Shown: one piece after another, positions 30,762-38,206 of the stretch | How the letters are laid out: each line of letters opens with the position of its first letter | Position numbering within the stretch: the first letter of the stretch is position 1 | Assembly (NCBI GenBank): GCA_902614085.1 | Contig: CACMJS010000003.1 | Location: 7,928 to 71,927, forward strand | DNA: 64,000 nucleotides | Reading direction: 5' to 3' | From: an uncultured Alphaproteobacteria bacterium | Lineage (GTDB): Bacteria > Pseudomonadota > Alphaproteobacteria > HIMB59 > GCA-002718135 | The notes under the pieces: model-generated | Database searches by the model: none | What the model was told of the DNA's origin: nothing | The model's input: only the letters and a program-made list of their open reading frames with translations | Made by a program: the position numbers and the translations under genes

Positions 30762-30995
30762 ATGATCCGATTGTTAATAGTTTTAATTGTTATAGTAATT
30801 ATACTATTTATTTTGAGATCAAGAGCCAAATCACAATATAATAATTATGGTAACTTTTATAGAAATTTAATTCTGATAGTCATAATTGGAGGTATAATCT
30901 TCTTCCTTGCAACAACTGGAAAATTCTTGATACCACAGTTATTAAATCTTATTAAAGTTGGTTTACCATTCTTGACAAAATTAATAGGAATATAA
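30762..30995 (+). CDS. Small hypothetical membrane protein (77 aa)
   Basis: Two TM helices; stop overlaps the next start (TAATG). Confidence 0.7.
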   Translation: MIRLLIVLIVIVIILFILRSRAKSQYNNYGNFYRNLILIVIIGGIIFFLATTGKFLIPQLLNLIKVGLPFLTKLIGI

Positions 30996-31858
30996 TGAAA
31001 TATTTTTCAACAAACGATCTACCCTTAAACGATGAAATGATTAAGTTTTGGAATGATAATGGATATTTGGTTATAGAAAATTTCAATACAGATAAAGAAT
31101 GTAATGAATTAATGGAACGGTCATCATATCTTATCGAACATAATAATTTTAATAATCAAAAATCTATTTTTGATACAGTCAATCAAGCTCATAATGATGA
31201 TAATTATTTTTTAGAATCAGGAGATAAAATTCGTTTCTTCTTTGAAGAAAAAGCTAATTTAAATGATGATAACATAGAAGAAAATAAACATTTTATTGTA
31301 AATAAAATCGGTCATGCGTTGCACGACTTAGATAAAGTTTTTTATAAATTTTCTCATAAACAAAAACTTCAAGATATTGCTTTATCACTTGGTTTCTCAA
31401 AACCAAAATTACTTCAGTCTATGTATATTTTTAAACAACCTAAAATAGGCGGTGAAGTAGTTTGCCATCAAGATTCTACTTTTTTATATACTGAGCCAGA
31501 AAGTACTATCGGTTTCTGGTTTGCATTAGAAGATGCAAATAAAACAAACGGATGTTTACAAGTTGCAAGCGGAGGTCATAAAGGCCCATTAAGAAAACTT
31601 TTTAAAAAAGTAGACGGTAAAATGCAAATGATAGATCTAAATGATGAGCCATTTCCTGAAACTGATACTTTTGTAGAAGTAAAAAAAGGATCACTTGTTT
31701 TATTACATGGTAGACTTCCTCATTATTCATGTGAGAACACAAGTATAAAATCAAGACATGCTTACACAATTCATGTAATTGATAATAACAACGAATATCC
31801 TGAATGGAATTGGTTACAAAGATCTTCAATACCTCTTAAAAGTTTTATTAATGACTAA
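30995..31858 (+). CDS. PhyH-family Fe(II)/2-oxoglutarate dioxygenase, PHYHD1-like
   Basis: NKIGHALHD, QSMYIFKQPKIGGEV, HQD iron motif, WFALEDA, NGCL, distal H in LPHYS, SR. Confidence 0.9.
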   Translation: MKYFSTNDLPLNDEMIKFWNDNGYLVIENFNTDKECNELMERSSYLIEHNNFNNQKSIFDTVNQAHNDDNYFLESGDKIRFFFEEKANLNDDNIEENKHFIVNKIGHALHDLDKVFYKFSHKQKLQDIALSLGFSKPKLLQSMYIFKQPKIGGEVVCHQDSTFLYTEPESTIGFWFALEDANKTNGCLQVASGGHKGPLRKLFKKVDGKMQMIDLNDEPFPETDTFVEVKKGSLVLLHGRLPHYSCENTSIKSRHAYTIHVIDNNNEYPEWNWLQRSSIPLKSFIND

Positions 31859-32795
31859 AAAAATAATTTTAGATTGTGATCCAGGTCATGATGATGCTGT
31901 AGCAATAATGTTAGCTGCTTCCTCTAAAGAGATTGACATACTGGGTATCACCTGTGTCGGTGGAAATAGTGGTTTAAATAATACAGTAAATAACGCTCTT
32001 AAAGTTTGTACCCTAATTGAAAGAACGGACATTAAAGTTTACTCTGGTGCAAATAAACCTATTCATTATGAATTATTTACAGCTGAATATGTTCACGGAA
32101 AAACCGGATTAGATAAAAAAGGTGATCCTATAATAATAGATACAAATTATAAACCTCAAGAAAAACATGCAGTTGATTTCATAGTAGAAACTTGTAAATC
32201 TTCAACAGAGCAAATTTATTTATGTCCAACAGGACCTCTTACAAATATTGCCTTAAGTTTAAAAAAAGATCCATCTATTAAAGAAAATATAAAAGAAATA
32301 GTTTTTATGGGTGGAGCTGCTATGTGCTTAGGAAATACTACACCATCAGCTGAATTTAATATTTATGTGGATCCACATGCGGCTAATATTGTTTTAGAGT
32401 CAGGCATTCCTTTAACAATGATGGGTTTAGATGTTACTCATCAGGTAAATGTAAATTCAAAAATTATCAAATCAATTAATGAAAATAAAAATAAAAGTTC
32501 TAAGTTTTTTGGGGAACTAATGGAATTTTATACAATATTTCATAAAGAATTATACGAAACTGAGGAAACTCCTTTGCATGACCCATGTGTTATTGCATAT
32601 TTATTAGATCCATCTATTTTTAGTGGAAAAGAAGTTAATGTCACAGTTGAAGAAAATTCTGAATTAACAAGAGGGGAGACTGTTGTTGATTGGCTAGGTG
32701 TTACTAAAAGACCAGTAAATTGTTTTGTGATGAATGAAGCTAATGATGAAAAATTTTTTAAATTACTTAAAGCTAAATTATTGTTATTACCTTAA
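31851..32795 (+). CDS. Inosine/uridine-preferring nucleoside hydrolase
   Basis: ILDCDPGHDDA (Ca-binding Asp cluster), VHGKTGL, TGPLTN, AEFNIYVDPHAA, GLDVT, LHDP. Likely start is ATG 31851. Confidence 0.94.
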   Translation: MTKKIILDCDPGHDDAVAIMLAASSKEIDILGITCVGGNSGLNNTVNNALKVCTLIERTDIKVYSGANKPIHYELFTAEYVHGKTGLDKKGDPIIIDTNYKPQEKHAVDFIVETCKSSTEQIYLCPTGPLTNIALSLKKDPSIKENIKEIVFMGGAAMCLGNTTPSAEFNIYVDPHAANIVLESGIPLTMMGLDVTHQVNVNSKIIKSINENKNKSSKFFGELMEFYTIFHKELYETEETPLHDPCVIAYLLDPSIFSGKEVNVTVEENSELTRGETVVDWLGVTKRPVNCFVMNEANDEKFFKLLKAKLLLLP

Positions 32796-33700
32796 CTATA
32801 AAAACCCTTTGCAATCTTTCCAGCTAAATTCGCATTATTAATTATTAAAGATACATTAGCATTTAGAGTTTCATTTTTTGATTGTTCGTTAATTTCTTTT
32901 ATGAGAAATGGGGTTAATTCTTTTCCACTAATATTATTTCTATCAGCTTTTATTGTTGCCTTATTTATCCATTTTTCTACGTCATTTTTATTAAGTGCTT
33001 TTTCTAATGGAACTTTATTAAATATAAGAATTGATTTTTTATTTCCCATATTTTCATTGAGTTTTAAAAAAGAAGAAATTTGATGAATTTCATCAAATTT
33101 ATTATCGACTTTATTTTCTGTTTCTTCATACCAAAAACCAGGTATATAATTTGTTTGATAACCAATTCTTGTAATTCCTAAAGTTTCAAGAAGTTCATTT
33201 GTTTTACTTAAATCTAATATAGATTTAGCACCACTACAGATTACATAATTTGAATTCTCAGAAAGTGCATATAGATCTGCAGATACATCATTGGTATTTT
33301 CAGCATTTAGATGCACACCGCCAATTCCTCCTGTTGCAAAAAATCTTATTTGAAATTTAGAAGCTATAGAAATTGTACTTGCTACTGTTGTAGCAGCATT
33401 TTCTTTATTAAATATTGATAAATTTATATTGTGGTTTGAAACTTTTTGTACATTTTTCTCTTTTGCTAATATTTGAATATCTTCTTCCGATAATCCTATT
33501 TTAACCTTACCTTTAATTATTCCTATTGTTGCAGCAATTGCACCGTTATCTTCAACAGCCTTTATAGACTCATTTGCAACTTTAATATTTTCTGGATAGG
33601 GCAATCCATGACTAATCAATGTACTTTCTAAAGCTACTATTGGTTTTTTTCTATTTATTGCTTCTTGAACTTTTTTACTTATATCAAATATTTCATGCAT
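32792..33700 (-). CDS. psuG: Pseudouridine-5'-phosphate glycosidase
   Basis: VALESTLISHGLPYPEN, ATTVAST, FATGGIGGVH, DVSADL, SGAKSILD, GKELTPFL. ATG at 33700 (track uses TTG 33712). Confidence 0.95.
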   Translation of the reverse strand: MHEIFDISKKVQEAINRKKPIVALESTLISHGLPYPENIKVANESIKAVEDNGAIAATIGIIKGKVKIGLSEEDIQILAKEKNVQKVSNHNINLSIFNKENAATTVASTISIASKFQIRFFATGGIGGVHLNAENTNDVSADLYALSENSNYVICSGAKSILDLSKTNELLETLGITRIGYQTNYIPGFWYEETENKVDNKFDEIHQISSFLKLNENMGNKKSILIFNKVPLEKALNKNDVEKWINKATIKADRNNISGKELTPFLIKEINEQSKNETLNANVSLIINNANLAGKIAKGFYS

Positions 33701-33701
33701 A

Positions 33702-34589
33702 CTATTGTACAATCACTCTCTTAGAAAGATTTTTAATTTTTAAAAAATCACTCTTAGTTTTTAGACTTTTACCACTAGCATAATAAGACCCGCATGCTAC
33801 AGAAGTTTTCAAAATATAATTCATTTTTTCATTAATACTGAACAAATACAGCATCATAGCTGCTAGTGCGTCTCCAGCTCCATTTTCGTTTACTACTTTG
33901 ATTGATGGGGGTTTTATTTTTTTTATAAATTCATTACTTCCAAAGATTACATTATTTTTTGAATTAGTAGTAATTATTTTTATTTTTTTATTTTGTTTTA
34001 ATATTTTTTTTACACCTAATATTATATTTGAAGAATTTGTAAGTTTAAGTAACTCTGCTTTATTTAAGAATATAAAATCAACTTTATTTATAATCCTTTT
34101 AATTTTAATAACTTTATGCACTGATGTTGCGCACACTATAATTTTATTTTTTTTTGATAGTTTATTTATTGATTTTTCCAAATAGGTTTTAGAAAAATTT
34201 AGATCAAATATTATATTTTTATTCTTGATGTTTGGTATTTTTAAAGATTTATTATTTTCATATTCATCTGTGTTAGCTAATCCTAATAAAAATTTATTAT
34301 TTTTATCTGATAAAGCTAAATAGTATCTATCTGCATAATCTTTATTCACTTGATGAACATAGATTTTTTTTGAGATTTTTTTTCTAATCTCTTCATTGAT
34401 AGCTAAACTATAAAATTTTACATCAACAAAATTCGAAAGCAATTCTGCAATATTGTATGCCACTCCACCAATTCTGCTTTTTTGTGTAATTTGATTAGAT
34501 CTAAAATTAATAATATTTTTTTTAAGATTTAATAAATAATCGTGATGAATTGCCCCAATACAAACGAAAATGTTTTTAGATTTCAGCAT
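33702..34589 (-). CDS. psuK: PfkB-family kinase, probable pseudouridine kinase (divergent)
   Basis: IGA..D, GGVAYNIA, LNKAEL, NENGAGDAL anion-hole motif; coupled to psuG. Confidence 0.72.
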   Translation of the reverse strand: MLKSKNIFVCIGAIHHDYLLNLKKNIINFRSNQITQKSRIGGVAYNIAELLSNFVDVKFYSLAINEEIRKKISKKIYVHQVNKDYADRYYLALSDKNNKFLLGLANTDEYENNKSLKIPNIKNKNIIFDLNFSKTYLEKSINKLSKKNKIIVCATSVHKVIKIKRIINKVDFIFLNKAELLKLTNSSNIILGVKKILKQNKKIKIITTNSKNNVIFGSNEFIKKIKPPSIKVVNENGAGDALAAMMLYLFSINEKMNYILKTSVACGSYYASGKSLKTKSDFLKIKNLSKRVIVQ

Positions 34590-37500
34590 TATGAATTATA
34601 CACCTTTTATGTCAGTTTTTGATGTTGATCCACCTATTATTGATAATAAACATTTAATTAAATGGTTAAAGATTAATTTTTCTTTCTTAAGAAATAAATT
34701 ACTCAAAATTAAACAACTTGATAGTGAAAGGGATATAAATTTTATTATATTCATAAATAATAAAAAAAAATATGTATTAAAAATTTCAAACCCATCAGAA
34801 AATATAAATATATTAAAATACCAAGATAGATTAATTAATTATTTACGAAGTGATCTTAGTCTTAAATCTTTTATACCAAAAATACACCATACAAAGATTG
34901 TAAAATATTTAGATAAAAAAAATAGAGAATGCTTTGTTAGGATCTTATCTTATATAGAAGGGCGAATGTATGGAGATACAAAAAGTAACGATAAAATTGA
35001 AAATTCTTTAGGTAAGTTACTTGGAAAAGTATCAACTAAGTTGAAAGCATTTAACGATATAGATGCCCACAGAAATTTTATTTGGGATCCATCAAATATA
35101 AAATGGATTAAAAAAGACATTAATATTTTTACAGGTTCAAAAAAATTAATTTTATTAAAATGTTTTTCAGAATATGAAAAATTTGTAAAAAATAATTTAA
35201 ATAAATTAAGATATTCAATAACTCATTCAGATCCAAATAATTATAATATTGTTATTAAAGAAAACAATGTTTGTGGTTTACTAGATTATGGAGATTCTAT
35301 TTATTCTCCAACAATAAATGATTTAGCTATATGCCTTTCATATGCATTAATGAACAATGATAATATTTATCTTACACTTAAAAATATAATAACAGAGTAC
35401 AATAAACAGTTTTCTATTAATGAGGATGAAATTAATTCATTAATATCATTATGTAAGTCAAGACTTATGATTACTGTTGTGATGGCAAAAAAACAAAGAA
35501 TTAAATATCCATCAAATCAATATTTAAGCATTAGTGAGAAAGATGCATGGTCTTTATTAGAAAAATTAGACAAAATTCCTATCAATTTTTTAATATATAT
35601 TGTTCGCGAAATATGTGGCTTTGATATTATTCACCATCATAATGAAATTATAAATTATATAAATAAATTCAACTTTGGTAATATTTTTAAATTTAATTTA
35701 CTAGATAAAAATAAATCTATCTTAAAATTAAGTTCTGATTCACCTTTATTGAAAGGTAACCCAGATAATATTTCGCTTAAAAAAAGAGTTAATAAAATAT
35801 TTAAAGAAGATAATTCTCATATAGGTATAGGCTTATACAATGAAAAAAGAAAAGTTTATAAGGGACCTAACTTTATTTCTGAATTAAATACGAATGAAAG
35901 ACGTAATATTCACTTAGGAATTGATATTTTTATTGATCAGGGAACAGATTTATTTGCTCCAATAGATGGTAAAATTATAATTTTAAAAAATAATAATTTT
36001 AAATATGACTATGGCCCCACTCTAGTTTTAGAGCATAGTTTTAAAAAATATAAATTTTATACTCTATACGGTCATTTATCTAAAATAATGTTTCAAAAAC
36101 TAAAAATTGGAAAAAAAATTAAGAAAGGTGAATGGATTGGTAAAATTGGTAATTCTAATGAAAATGGAAAATGGTTACCACATTTACATTTTCAAATTAT
36201 TTTAGATTTATTAGGACATGATAAGAATTTTCCAGGAGTAGGTGAAAAATTTTTATTCAATATTTGGAATAAAATTTCACCTGATCCAAATTTAATTCTA
36301 CGAATTCCAAAATCTTTTTATTCTAATAATAATAATTTTAAAGATACTTTAAAGAAAAGAAAAAAAAATATTTCTGATAATTTATCAATTTCTTACAAGA
36401 AACCTCTTCATATGCTTGAAGCTAAAGATCAGTATTTTTTTGATAGATATGGCAGGAGATACTTAGATTGTGTAAATAATATTTCCCATGTTGGACATTC
36501 AAATTTCTACGTCCATGAAGCTATGACTCAGCAAAATTTAAAACTTAATACTAATACGAGATATCTTTACGATACAATTAACGATTATAGTGAATTACTT
36601 TTAAGTAAGTTTCCAAAGAAATTAAATAAGATATTTTTCGTATGTACAGGATCTGAAGCTAATGATTTAGCTTATAGAATAGCCCAAACTTATACTAGTG
36701 CAAAAGATGTCTTTGTGATGGACAATGCTTATCATGGGCATACCAATGCTTTAATTGATCTAAGTCCGTATAAATTTAATAGTAAGGGTGGTTTGGGTAA
36801 AAAAGATTATGTTCATGTATTAGACATGCCTGATCCCCTAAGAGGTAAGTGGAGATATCAAAATTCAAATTGGATTCAAAAATATATAGATGAAGCTAAA
36901 ACGGTAATTAGAAATAAAATTAAAAAAACCAATATTGCATGTTTTTTTACTGAAAGTATACTTGGTTGCGGCGGTCAAGTAATTCTTCCAAAAAATTATT
37001 TAAAAGAAATATTTTCAGAAATTAGAAGAAACAATGCATTATGTATTGTTGACGAGGTACAAACTGGTTTTGGACGCGTTGGAAGACATTTTTGGTCATT
37101 TGAAGAGCATGATGTCATTCCTGATATAGTAACCTTGGGCAAACCTATGGGCAATGGTCACCCTATAGCTGCTGTTATAACTACAGAAAAAATTGCTTCA
37201 ACTTTTAATAACGGGATGGAATATTTTAACTCATTCGGTGGTAATCCTGTTTCCTGTGCTATCGGCAAAGCAGTATTAGAGACTATTGATAATAATAAAT
37301 TACAAAAAAATGCTTTGTTAGTTGGTAATTATTTTTTAAAAGAATTAAAAAAAATCCAACTTAAATATAAAAAATATATTAGTGAAGTTAGAGGTAGGGG
37401 GCTTTTTTTAGGAATAGATATTATTCAGAATAGTAATGTTTCTAAACCAAATAAAAAATTAGCTAAACTGCTTATTAATTATATGAGAAATCAAGGTATT

Positions 37501-37620
37501 TTATTGAGCACTGATGGACCTTATGACAATGTTATTAAAATAAAGCCACCTCTTGTATTTACAAAATTAAATGTTGATCAGGTATGTAAAAACTTAGAAA
37601 CTTTCTTTAAAAAATTATAA
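34570..37620 (+). CDS. Three-domain fusion: aminoglycoside-phosphotransferase-like kinase, M23 metallopeptidase-like domain, class III PLP aminotransferase/phospho-lyase
   Basis: Kinase VLKISN, HSDPNNYN, LDYGD; M23 HLGID, YGHL, PHLHFQ; PLP domain YLDCVNN, GSEANDLA, DEVQTGFGR, LGKPMGNG. Real start is probably ATG 34591 or 34609. Confidence 0.9.
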   Translation: MFLDFSIMNYTPFMSVFDVDPPIIDNKHLIKWLKINFSFLRNKLLKIKQLDSERDINFIIFINNKKKYVLKISNPSENINILKYQDRLINYLRSDLSLKSFIPKIHHTKIVKYLDKKNRECFVRILSYIEGRMYGDTKSNDKIENSLGKLLGKVSTKLKAFNDIDAHRNFIWDPSNIKWIKKDINIFTGSKKLILLKCFSEYEKFVKNNLNKLRYSITHSDPNNYNIVIKENNVCGLLDYGDSIYSPTINDLAICLSYALMNNDNIYLTLKNIITEYNKQFSINEDEINSLISLCKSRLMITVVMAKKQRIKYPSNQYLSISEKDAWSLLEKLDKIPINFLIYIVREICGFDIIHHHNEIINYINKFNFGNIFKFNLLDKNKSILKLSSDSPLLKGNPDNISLKKRVNKIFKEDNSHIGIGLYNEKRKVYKGPNFISELNTNERRNIHLGIDIFIDQGTDLFAPIDGKIIILKNNNFKYDYGPTLVLEHSFKKYKFYTLYGHLSKIMFQKLKIGKKIKKGEWIGKIGNSNENGKWLPHLHFQIILDLLGHDKNFPGVGEKFLFNIWNKISPDPNLILRIPKSFYSNNNNFKDTLKKRKKNISDNLSISYKKPLHMLEAKDQYFFDRYGRRYLDCVNNISHVGHSNFYVHEAMTQQNLKLNTNTRYLYDTINDYSELLLSKFPKKLNKIFFVCTGSEANDLAYRIAQTYTSAKDVFVMDNAYHGHTNALIDLSPYKFNSKGGLGKKDYVHVLDMPDPLRGKWRYQNSNWIQKYIDEAKTVIRNKIKKTNIACFFTESILGCGGQVILPKNYLKEIFSEIRRNNALCIVDEVQTGFGRVGRHFWSFEEHDVIPDIVTLGKPMGNGHPIAAVITTEKIASTFNNGMEYFNSFGGNPVSCAIGKAVLETIDNNKLQKNALLVGNYFLKELKKIQLKYKKYISEVRGRGLFLGIDIIQNSNVSKPNKKLAKLLINYMRNQGILLSTDGPYDNVIKIKPPLVFTKLNVDQVCKNLETFFKKL

Positions 37621-38206
37621 AATATATTCCATAACTAATCATTAGCAGACCAATGGTTAGATCAATCCAAAACCAAGTTTTATTTGAATAAATATATTTT
37701 GACAAAAACTTTGACATATATCCCAAAGAAAAGAAAAACAAAAAACTAGCTGAAATTGCTCCAACGCCAAATGAAAATTGATCATTAAAATTTGTTGATA
37801 ATGATCCCAGCAAAATAATTGTATCTAGATAAACATGAGGATTAGCGTATGTAATAAGGAATAAGGTAATTAATACTTTACCGTATTCGTTAATTATATT
37901 TAATTTTTTATTTATATCTTTAATTTGATTTAATTTTATAACTTTATTTAATCCATAAAATATAAGCCAAATTCCACCTAATACTTTTATTATTCCTATG
38001 ATACTTGGATTAATTTGAACAATATAATTAGATAGATATATTCCAATTACAATTAGTAAACTGTCAGATAGACTGCAAAATAAAGTAACTGTAAAAACAT
38101 AAGATTTTTTAAGCCCTTGTTGAATTACAAATAAATTTTGCGGTCCTATGGCTATAATTAATGTTCCTCCAATTATTAATCCTTGGATAAAATCATAAAT
38201 ATACAT
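37607..38206 (-). CDS. LysE/ArgO family amino-acid exporter
   Basis: IAIGPQNLFVIQQGL, SDSLLI, NPHVYLDT. Confidence 0.92.
   Translation of the reverse strand: MYIYDFIQGLIIGGTLIIAIGPQNLFVIQQGLKKSYVFTVTLFCSLSDSLLIVIGIYLSNYIVQINPSIIGIIKVLGGIWLIFYGLNKVIKLNQIKDINKKLNIINEYGKVLITLFLITYANPHVYLDTIILLGSLSTNFNDQFSFGVGAISASFLFFFSLGYMSKFLSKYIYSNKTWFWIDLTIGLLMISYGIYFIIF

What the first reader, a model, noticed from the sequence alone, without database searches (positions are those of the whole stretch)
34570..37620. Kinase-M23-phospholyase triple fusion with an intact, unexplained cytoplasmic M23 zinc site
Seen: one 1016-aa ORF with no signal peptide and intact motifs for all three domains, including M23 HxxxD (HLGID) and HxH (HLH). 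Established: kinase plus class III PLP phospho-lyase pairs degrade 5-hydroxylysine or ethanolamine-type amino alcohols (AGPHD1/AGXT2L2-like), and M23 domains are normally extracytoplasmic peptidoglycan or Gly-Gly endopeptidases. The architecture exists in other bacteria, but I know no role for the middle domain. Inference: a three-step assembly line in which M23 frees a hydroxylated diamino acid from a peptide or cross-link, the kinase phosphorylates it and the PLP domain eliminates phosphate. The convergent LysE/ArgO exporter would suit a lysine-like, possibly toxic substrate.
Basis: partly seen in the sequence, partly recalled or inferred. Interest (0 to 1): 0.6.

Follow-up and report, generated by a model that had tools for sequence, protein, structure and literature searches.

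The report
Kinase-M23-phospho-lyase fusion enzyme, known family
This is a real, intact gene for a three-part cytoplasmic enzyme that most likely phosphorylates an amino alcohol and then splits off phosphate and ammonia. The architecture is widespread and already catalogued, so the only open question is what its strictly conserved zinc-peptidase-like middle module does.

Summary
Window 34570-37620 (+) is one open frame of 1016 aa, with a likely true start at M8 or M14. It carries an APH-fold kinase, an M23 module with all five catalytic residues, and a PLP domain closest to human ETNPPL (E 1e-123). It matches NCBIfam PRK06148 end to end. This scan has met the same architecture in at least 47 other genomes, so it is a new member of a known but unassayed family.

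New here:
- The M23 part is a roughly 235-residue module (352-585) of a distinct subfamily with no signal peptide. It is as conserved as the lyase (42% vs 46% identity; kinase 26%).
- The module also exists alone as roughly 230-aa proteins, mainly in Bacteroidota, in genomes that lack the kinase and lyase.
- Nine of ten genomes with kinase-lyase pairs that lack M23 have no such module anywhere.
- A sister clade (PRK06149 type) keeps the domain but has lost the zinc site.

So the M23 module is probably an active but separable accessory hydrolase, not an obligatory pathway step. The LysE link is not conserved. The substrate is unproven; candidates are hydroxylysine-type or ethanolamine-type amino alcohols.

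The parts
34570..37620 (+). Whole ORF, 1016 aa (P0001). The likely true start is M8 at 34591 or M14 at 34609.
   Evidence: Matches NF004799/PRK06148 end to end at 1019.8 bits. Full-length AF2 model has pLDDT 91.9 and pTM 0.84, with residues 1-15 below 50.
34570..35619 (+). APH-fold small-molecule kinase domain (residues 1-350). Key residues: K71, H219/D221/N226, D239/D242.
   Evidence: Pfam APH. Motifs conserved across homologues. A profile of the domain matches amicoumacin kinase 6sui (5e-16), homoserine kinase 2ppq (3e-14) and 6ef6 (5e-14).
35623..36324 (+). M23 module (residues 352-585): an N-terminal helix-strand-helix extension, the M23 core, and C-terminal helices ending in the FPGV...PDPN motif.
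   Evidence: Module-only AF2 model has pLDDT 94.2 and pTM 0.90. Only about 125-143 of its 251 residues superpose on solved M23 domains. The same module occurs as standalone proteins of about 230 aa.
35887..36204 (+). M23 catalytic core (residues 440-545). Presumed Zn ligands are H448, D452 and H540; presumed catalytic residues are H502 and H538. E425, R427, R445, N532 and W535 are invariant within this subfamily.
   Evidence: 141 of 150 subfamily representatives keep the full HxxxD...GH...HxH pattern.
36340..37617 (+). Class-III PLP domain of the ETNPPL/PHYKPL (AGXT2L) phospho-lyase type (residues 591-1016). Key residues: D828 and K858.
   Evidence: 6tor 1.2e-123, aligned over query residues 591-1003.
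37607..38206 (-). Convergent LysE-family gene that overlaps the ORF's 3' end by 14 nt. It is listed only as a neighbour; a functional link is not supported.
   Evidence: Pfam LysE. Present in L031 and L032 but absent from L033 and L034. Not among the 25 Pfam families listed for neighbours at the 8 Pseudomonadota loci.

Best explanation
The gene encodes a cytoplasmic three-domain enzyme of the architecture modelled by NCBIfam PRK06148.

Core reaction (strongly inferred from homology). The N-terminal APH-fold kinase phosphorylates the hydroxyl of a vicinal amino alcohol that has a terminal amine. The C-terminal PLP domain, an ETNPPL/PHYKPL-type phospho-lyase, then eliminates phosphate and ammonia to give an aldehyde. 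In a streamlined marine cell the main gain would be ammonium, by a B12-independent route.

Substrate (not shown). 5-hydroxylysine and ethanolamine/aminopropanol-type compounds are the candidates.

Middle module (inferred). It belongs to a separate M23 subfamily with no signal peptide. It keeps every catalytic residue and is packed rigidly between the other two domains. Most likely it is an active zinc hydrolase for a small soluble amide or peptide. When fused, it may widen the supply of free amino alcohol, for example from hydroxylysine-containing peptides. It is an accessory, not a required step.
For: - Lyase identity: 6tor 1e-123 and 5g4i 8e-87, against 3e-43 or weaker for all other class-III enzymes. 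D828 and K858 are invariant.
- Kinase: APH motifs are intact. The nearest solved relatives are small-molecule hydroxyl kinases.
- Kinase-lyase coupling: they are fused with M23, fused without it, or encoded by adjacent genes in many genomes.
- M23 under selection: over 35 full-length representatives the median identity is 42% for the M23 module, 26% for the kinase and 46.5% for the lyase. Sixteen columns, including all five catalytic residues, are invariant in 48 fused and standalone sequences. 141 of 150 representatives keep the pattern.
- Rigid integration: the full-length model has pTM 0.84 and no disordered linkers.
- Separable module: 74 standalone ORFs of 219-298 aa have no hydrophobic N-terminus and sit in housekeeping contexts. 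All 5 host genomes tested lack the kinase and lyase. Nine of 10 genomes with kinase-lyase lacking M23 have no such module.
- Hydroxylysine hint: in L144 the fusion is followed on the same strand by a GH2 beta-galactosidase and a GH63/MGH1-like glucosidase. These fit the Glc-alpha1,2-Gal-beta-Hyl unit of collagen (linkage as described in PMC8626586).
- EutB was not found in this 96%-complete genome.
Against: - No member of the bacterial family has been assayed in anything I could find.
- The substrate is undetermined. Neighbours of the fusion are not conserved, and this window's neighbours (pseudouridine genes, LysE, SRAP) give no clue.
- M23 is dispensable for close lyase orthologues.
- The sister clade keeps the domain after losing the zinc site. 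That shows a non-catalytic role can be enough.
- Standalone homologues occur without kinase or lyase, so the module's native substrate need not be tied to amino alcohols.
- I could not inspect model coordinates, so the geometry between the active sites is unknown.
Confidence: 0.6

Rival explanations
1. The M23 module is a non-catalytic structural or regulatory spacer. It holds the kinase and lyase in a fixed geometry or mediates oligomerisation. Its zinc site is kept only for fold stability.
For: - The PRK06149-type clade (L019, L025, L026, L149, L150) keeps a domain of the same size that has lost HxxxD and HxH. It forms one supported clade, 97/93.
- The full-length model is compact, with pTM 0.84.
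- Degenerate LytM domains such as EnvC are well-known non-enzymes and are among the best structural matches (Z 12.7-12.9).
Against: - The two presumed non-ligand catalytic histidines (H502, H538) and further subfamily-specific residues (E425, R427, R445, N532, W535) are invariant as well.
- The module is as conserved as the lyase.
- It exists alone with intact residues in genomes that have nothing to scaffold.
- Where only a structural role was needed, in the PRK06149 clade, the residues decayed.
Confidence: 0.25
2. M23 cuts a hydroxylated diamino acid out of a peptidoglycan peptide or cross-link, the kinase and lyase degrade it, and the convergent LysE exporter handles the lysine-like compound.
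For: - M23 enzymes normally cut peptidoglycan peptides, and the best sequence matches are Pgp3, ShyA and MepM types.
- YkuD and SLT genes appear near some Rhizobiales copies.
- LysE is adjacent here and in the L031 and L032 relatives.
Against: - LysE is on the opposite strand, is absent from L033 and L034 and does not appear among the 25 Pfam families listed for neighbours elsewhere.
- The YkuD hits number only three among 49 neighbour ORFs, several of which come from loci of one genus, so they may not be independent.
- Phospho-lyases of this type act on terminal amines next to a hydroxyl, which does not fit beta-hydroxy-alpha-amino acids such as hydroxy-DAP (established knowledge of ETNPPL/PHYKPL, from memory).
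- M23 is not needed by close orthologues.
Confidence: 0.05
3. The PLP domain is an ordinary omega-transaminase (database names for relatives include 'DavT') and is not functionally coupled to the kinase.
For: - Several relatives are named 5-aminovalerate aminotransferase by their sources.
- The fold and the PLP residues are shared by all class-III enzymes.
Against: - There is a gap of about 80 orders of magnitude in E-value between the phospho-lyase matches and any transaminase.
- Kinase and lyase are repeatedly fused or adjacent in independent lineages.
- The source names are automatic annotations.
Confidence: 0.05

Closest known systems
NCBIfam NF004799 (PRK06148, 'hypothetical protein') and its sister NF004800 (PRK06149)
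   Same: Same three regions in the same order. The match covers residues 46-1014 of the protein and positions 29-1009 of the 1015-position profile. Homologues with the same three Pfam domains are very numerous: 7916 of the 8000 candidates scored reached E <= 0.001, and all but two shorter entries among the 120 listed carry them.
   Different: The score of 1019.8 bits is below NCBI's cut-off of 1128, probably because of the very AT-rich composition (GC 21-30%). PRK06149-type proteins have a degenerate middle domain, whereas this one is intact.
Vertebrate hydroxylysine kinase (HYKK/AGPHD1) with 5-phosphohydroxy-L-lysine phospho-lyase (PHYKPL/AGXT2L2), and the paralogue ETNPPL/AGXT2L1 (PDB 6TOR). 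Source: Veiga-da-Cunha et al., J Biol Chem 2012;287:7246; reference confirmed, text not held.
   Same: The PLP domain aligns end to end with human ETNPPL at E 1.2e-123. Both use the same two-step logic of kinase followed by phosphate and ammonia elimination. From memory, that paper used bacterial bi- and tri-functional fusions as its lead.
   Different: The animal enzymes are separate proteins and have no M23 domain. Which of the two animal specificities, if either, applies here is unknown. I had no HYKK or PHYKPL sequence to compare.
Arthrobacter aurescens phospho-lyase A1RDF1 (PDB 5G4I/5G4J)
   Same: It is the second-best solved relative of the PLP domain at E 7.9e-87, aligned over nearly the full length.
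   Different: It is a stand-alone protein of 446 aa with no fused kinase or M23.
Amino-alcohol and related small-molecule APH-fold kinases: PDB 6EF6 (from memory, the Mycobacterium smegmatis 1-amino-2-propanol kinase), homoserine kinase 2PPQ, amicoumacin kinase 6SUI
   Same: They are the best solved matches to a profile of the kinase domain, at 5e-14 to 5e-16. They share the catalytic HxDxxxxN and DxGD motifs.
   Different: They are only distant relatives, and a single-sequence search found none. Substrate specificity cannot be transferred.
Extracytoplasmic M23/LytM peptidoglycan peptidases (LytM, lysostaphin, Pgp3/Csd3, ShyA, MepM) and degenerate LytM factors (EnvC, DipM)
   Same: Same core fold, with Z 10-13 and 125-143 aligned residues. 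The HxxxD, H and HxH residues are the same.
   Different: This module has no signal peptide and sits inside a cytoplasmic PLP/ATP enzyme. It has about 100 extra residues in N- and C-terminal extensions, for which none of the solved M23 domains found in the searches supplied a counterpart (TMq <= 0.38). It also has extra invariant residues (E425, R427, R445, N532, W535). The PRK06148 profile matches standalone members at 1e-46, against 1e-9 for any peptidoglycan-type model.

Membership tests
NCBIfam NF004799 / PRK06148 (kinase-M23-lyase architecture) | End-to-end match to the 1015-position profile, with the three regions in order | tested here: met
   Residues 46-1014 match profile positions 29-1009, E = 0. 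The whole-genome search gives the same result.
NCBIfam NF004799 / PRK06148 (kinase-M23-lyase architecture) | Score at or above the curated cut-off of 1128 bits | tested here: not met
   The score is 1019.8 bits or 1020.3. I therefore file the protein under the architecture, not under NCBI's curated name. Ten of 301 genomes of the phylum exceed the cut-off.
ETNPPL/PHYKPL (AGXT2L) PLP phospho-lyases | Class-III aminotransferase fold with the PLP lysine and aspartate | tested here: met
   Aminotran_3 scores 258.5 bits. K858 and D828 are invariant in 40 sequences.
ETNPPL/PHYKPL (AGXT2L) PLP phospho-lyases | Closer to characterised phospho-lyases than to any transaminase, racemase or decarboxylase | tested here: met
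   6tor 1e-123 and 5g4i 8e-87, with the next best match at 2.8e-43.
ETNPPL/PHYKPL (AGXT2L) PLP phospho-lyases | Elimination of phosphate and ammonia from an O-phospho amino alcohol | not testable with these tools
   This needs an enzyme assay.
APH-fold small-molecule kinases (hydroxylysine kinase / homoserine kinase II type) | APH fold with the ATP lysine, the HxDxxxxN catalytic loop and the DxGD metal site | tested here: met
   Pfam APH scores 39.4 bits against a cut-off of 23.2. K71, H219/D221/N226 and D239/D242 are present.
APH-fold small-molecule kinases (hydroxylysine kinase / homoserine kinase II type) | Orthology to animal hydroxylysine kinase HYKK | not tested
The PDB profile search gives only distant kinases.
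MEROPS M23 metallopeptidases | M23 fold with HxxxD and HxH zinc ligands plus two catalytic histidines | tested here: met
   Pfam scores 62.9 bits. H448, D452, H502, H538 and H540 align with solved enzymes. Z is 12-13 to M23 domains.
MEROPS M23 metallopeptidases | Export signal and extracytoplasmic action on peptidoglycan or secreted peptides (the usual setting) | tested here: not met
   There is no hydrophobic N-terminus in the fusion or in 74 standalone homologues. The module is embedded between ATP- and PLP-dependent domains.
MEROPS M23 metallopeptidases | Zinc binding and peptide-bond hydrolysis | not testable with these tools
   This needs metal analysis and activity assays.

The most novel reading that the evidence does not exclude
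The middle module defines an uncharacterised clade of cytoplasmic M23 zinc hydrolases. Members are standalone proteins of about 230 aa in Bacteroidota and other phyla, and fused modules in PRK06148-type enzymes. They would act on small soluble peptides or amide conjugates rather than on the cell wall. In the fusion the module would release peptide-bound hydroxylysine (from collagen or similar sources) for the kinase-lyase pair.
Probability: 0.3. Interest if true: 0.6.

Novelty: new member of a known kind. Interest (0 to 1): 0.33.

Why it matters
The kinase-lyase pair gives very abundant marine bacteria a B12-independent way to strip ammonium from amino alcohols, which matters for nitrogen scavenging in the ocean. 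The family has never been assayed.

The more general point concerns the M23 module. M23 peptidases are treated as cell-wall or secreted enzymes. Here a strictly conserved cytoplasmic M23 subfamily, fused or free-standing, has no known substrate. Finding that substrate would extend what this fold is known to do. It would also settle whether bacteria have a dedicated route for peptide-bound or glycosylated hydroxylysine.

Tried and rejected
- Literature. Ten full-text searches found no paper on the bacterial fusion or on a cytoplasmic M23. The founding paper PMC3293546 is not held.
- A single-sequence PDB search with the kinase domain found nothing. A profile was needed.
- Conserved operon partners. 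Neighbours of 8 Pseudomonadota loci and 10 Bacteroidota loci are mostly unrelated, so no general context clue emerged. Only L144 shows the GH2/GH63-like pairing.
- Standalone M23 context. The neighbours are housekeeping genes (leuS, lolE-like, ftsX, ruvB, rbfA, uppP), and these look like lineage synteny. I rejected the FtsX and UppP neighbours as functional evidence because of their distance and opposite strand.
- The promoter and terminator scan was uninformative in this AT-rich DNA: 27 promoter-like sites found against 34 expected, and 0 terminators.
- Foldseek and VIA searches for a solved counterpart of the whole M23 module found only the core.
- I did not run complex prediction. No claim here depends on a binding test.
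- I could not read model coordinates, so distances between the three active sites were not measured.
Full report
**Observation.** One search lists a single ORF at 34570-37620 (+), 1016 aa, in DNA of 21-30% GC. Pfam finds three domains:
- APH at 64-261.
- Peptidase_M23 at 447-544.
- Aminotran_3 at 613-1011.

NCBIfam PRK06148 (NF004799, 'hypothetical protein', 1015 positions) matches residues 46-1014 at 1019.8 bits, just under its cut-off of 1128. The sister model PRK06149 scores 540 bits.

Close relatives start at the equivalent of M8 and more distant ones at M14. Residues 1-15 are the only disordered stretch in the model. The true protein is therefore probably 1003-1009 aa. There is no signal-peptide-like stretch.

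**How common it is.**
- A search of the 5.8-billion-protein set scored the 8000 candidates that shared most words with the query, and 7916 of them reached E <= 0.001. All but two shorter entries among the best 120 carry the same three Pfam domains. They come from marine Alphaproteobacteria, including Pelagibacteraceae.
- In 301 genomes of the phylum, 33 have a strong match and 10 exceed the NCBIfam cut-off.
- In 251 Bacteroidota genomes, 7 exceed it.
- Earlier notes of this scan describe the same fusion in at least 47 genomes.

This ORF is another member of a catalogued, unassayed family.

**The two outer domains.** The PLP domain aligns over its whole length with human ethanolamine-phosphate phospho-lyase (6tor, 1.2e-123) and with the Arthrobacter phospho-lyase (5g4i, 7.9e-87). 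The next solved class-III enzyme scores only 2.8e-43.

A profile of the kinase domain matches small-molecule hydroxyl kinases:
- Amicoumacin kinase 6sui, 5e-16.
- Homoserine kinase 2ppq, 3e-14.
- 6ef6, 5e-14. From memory, this is the mycobacterial aminopropanol kinase.

Kinase and lyase occur in several arrangements:
- Fused with M23.
- Fused without it (L021, L137, L138).
- As adjacent genes (L022, L023, L136).

This is the pattern that, from memory, led Veiga-da-Cunha et al. (J Biol Chem 2012) to the animal hydroxylysine kinase and phospho-lyases. I confirmed the reference, but the text is not held. I take the two-step reaction, phosphorylation of a vicinal amino alcohol followed by elimination of phosphate and ammonia, as strongly inferred but unassayed.

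**The M23 module.** Aligning fused and free sequences shows that the unit is about 235 residues (352-585), not just the 100-residue Pfam core. It has an N-terminal helix-strand-helix with an invariant GxY-E425-x-R427 motif. Its C-terminal helices end in FPGV...PDPN.
- Modelled alone, it folds with pLDDT 94.2 and pTM 0.90.
- Only 125-143 residues superpose on solved M23/LytM domains, at Z 10-13. None of the solved M23 domains found in the searches supplied a counterpart for the extensions.
- Sixteen columns are invariant in 48 sequences. They include both presumed catalytic histidines as well as the three zinc ligands.
- 141 of 150 representatives keep the full pattern, and most of the exceptions are short sequences of under 270 residues.
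- Over 35 full-length representatives, the module is 42% identical to the query, the lyase 46.5% and the kinase only 26%.
- The full-length model is compact, with pLDDT 91.9, pTM 0.84 and no disordered linkers.

These facts argue for a working zinc site rather than a relic.

**Distribution shows the module is separable.** A whole-library search with the module returned several forms beside the triple fusions:
- Proteins of 570-590 aa, with the M23 match at the C-terminal end. The two I read, P0124 and P0130, are kinase-M23 proteins that end after the module.
- An M23-lyase protein without a kinase (L020).
- Many proteins of about 230 aa.

The standalone form has these properties:
- The 80 best loci in the species-level genome collection are nearly all Bacteroidota, with some Acidobacteriota and Ignavibacteria.
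- 74 of 75 ORFs are 219-298 aa and have no hydrophobic N-terminus.
- They lie among housekeeping genes.
- In five such genomes the best lyase-region match is 192 bits or less, against 400-750 bits for true orthologues. No kinase match appears.

Conversely, of ten genomes whose kinase-lyase lacks M23, nine have only ordinary peptidoglycan-type M23 hits (46 bits or less), and one has a standalone module.

A lyase tree places the forms without M23 among the intact triple fusions. All forms with a degenerate middle domain (L019, L025, L026, L149, L150; no HxxxD or HxH) form one supported clade (97/93) that spans two phyla. Several genomes carry both an intact and a degenerate paralogue (G318, G345, G525).

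My reading is as follows:
- The module has its own activity.
- It has been added to or dropped from the kinase-lyase pair repeatedly.
- It is not required for that chemistry.
- In one old lineage it survives only as a structural piece.

**Substrate.** The window's own neighbours are unhelpful:
- Divergent pseudouridine kinase and glycosidase genes.
- A nucleoside hydrolase and a PhyH protein.
- The convergent LysE gene.
- DUF4864 and SRAP.

The synteny is kept in relatives of 61-64% identity, but LysE is missing in L033 and L034. Neighbours elsewhere vary.

One Bacteroidota locus (L144) has the fusion followed on the same strand, 24 nt downstream, by a GH2 beta-galactosidase. A GH63/MGH1-like glucosidase follows immediately after that. 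These two enzymes fit the two glycosidic bonds of collagen's Glc-alpha1,2-Gal-beta-hydroxylysine (linkage and GH63 specificity as described in PMC8626586). This reproduces, for one locus, a lead in earlier notes e1-2454335 and e1-4220498. It favours hydroxylysine at least in that lineage.

For this streamlined marine genome, ethanolamine-type substrates remain equally possible. EutB was not found in the 96%-complete assembly.

**Verdict.**
- The idea that M23 is an obligatory first step, the peptidoglycan source and the LysE link are not supported.
- A role for M23 in freeing a peptide-bound amino alcohol stays possible, but it is an inference.

The gene is a new member of a known, catalogued kind. 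The residual interest is the unexplained, strictly conserved cytoplasmic M23 subfamily.

Noticed in passing
L045-L124 (genome-contig loci), e.g. L067:6001-6666, L051:6001-6639: A standalone, signal-peptide-less M23 protein of about 230 aa with all catalytic residues is widespread in Bacteroidota, and also occurs in Acidobacteriota and Ignavibacteria. It sits among housekeeping genes (leuS, lolE-like, ftsX, ruvB, rbfA, uppP). No NCBIfam model names it; its best match is the middle of PRK06148.
   Followed up: partly
L144:1951-10006 (G504:C8): Three same-strand genes with a 24-nt gap and then none: the kinase-M23-lyase fusion, a GH2 beta-galactosidase and a GH63/MGH1-like glucosidase. This fits catabolism of glucosyl-galactosyl-hydroxylysine.
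   Followed up: partly
L139/L150 (G318), L140/L149 (G345), L141 (G525): Single Bacteroidota genomes carry two paralogues, one with an intact M23 site and one of about 965 aa with a degenerate middle domain. This suggests two different substrates or roles.
   Followed up: partly
window 30995-34589: A block of PhyH dioxygenase, inosine-uridine nucleoside hydrolase, pseudouridine-5'-phosphate glycosidase (Indigoidine_A) and PfkB kinase lies upstream of, and in part divergent from, the fusion. The same order is conserved in relatives of 61-64% identity (L031, L033).
   Followed up: no
window 34570-34589 and 37607-37620: With the longest ORFs, the fusion overlaps the divergent PfkB gene by 20 nt at the 5' ends and the convergent LysE gene by 14 nt at the 3' ends. 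The 5' overlap vanishes if the fusion starts at M8 or M14, as in relatives.
   Followed up: yes
window 50560-51837 (G000:C3:58487-59764): A second class-III aminotransferase of about 450 aa (165 bits to the lyase part of PRK06148, so not a phospho-lyase orthologue). It is kept in the same neighbourhood in relatives (L031:13202-14536, L033:11278-12615).
   Followed up: no
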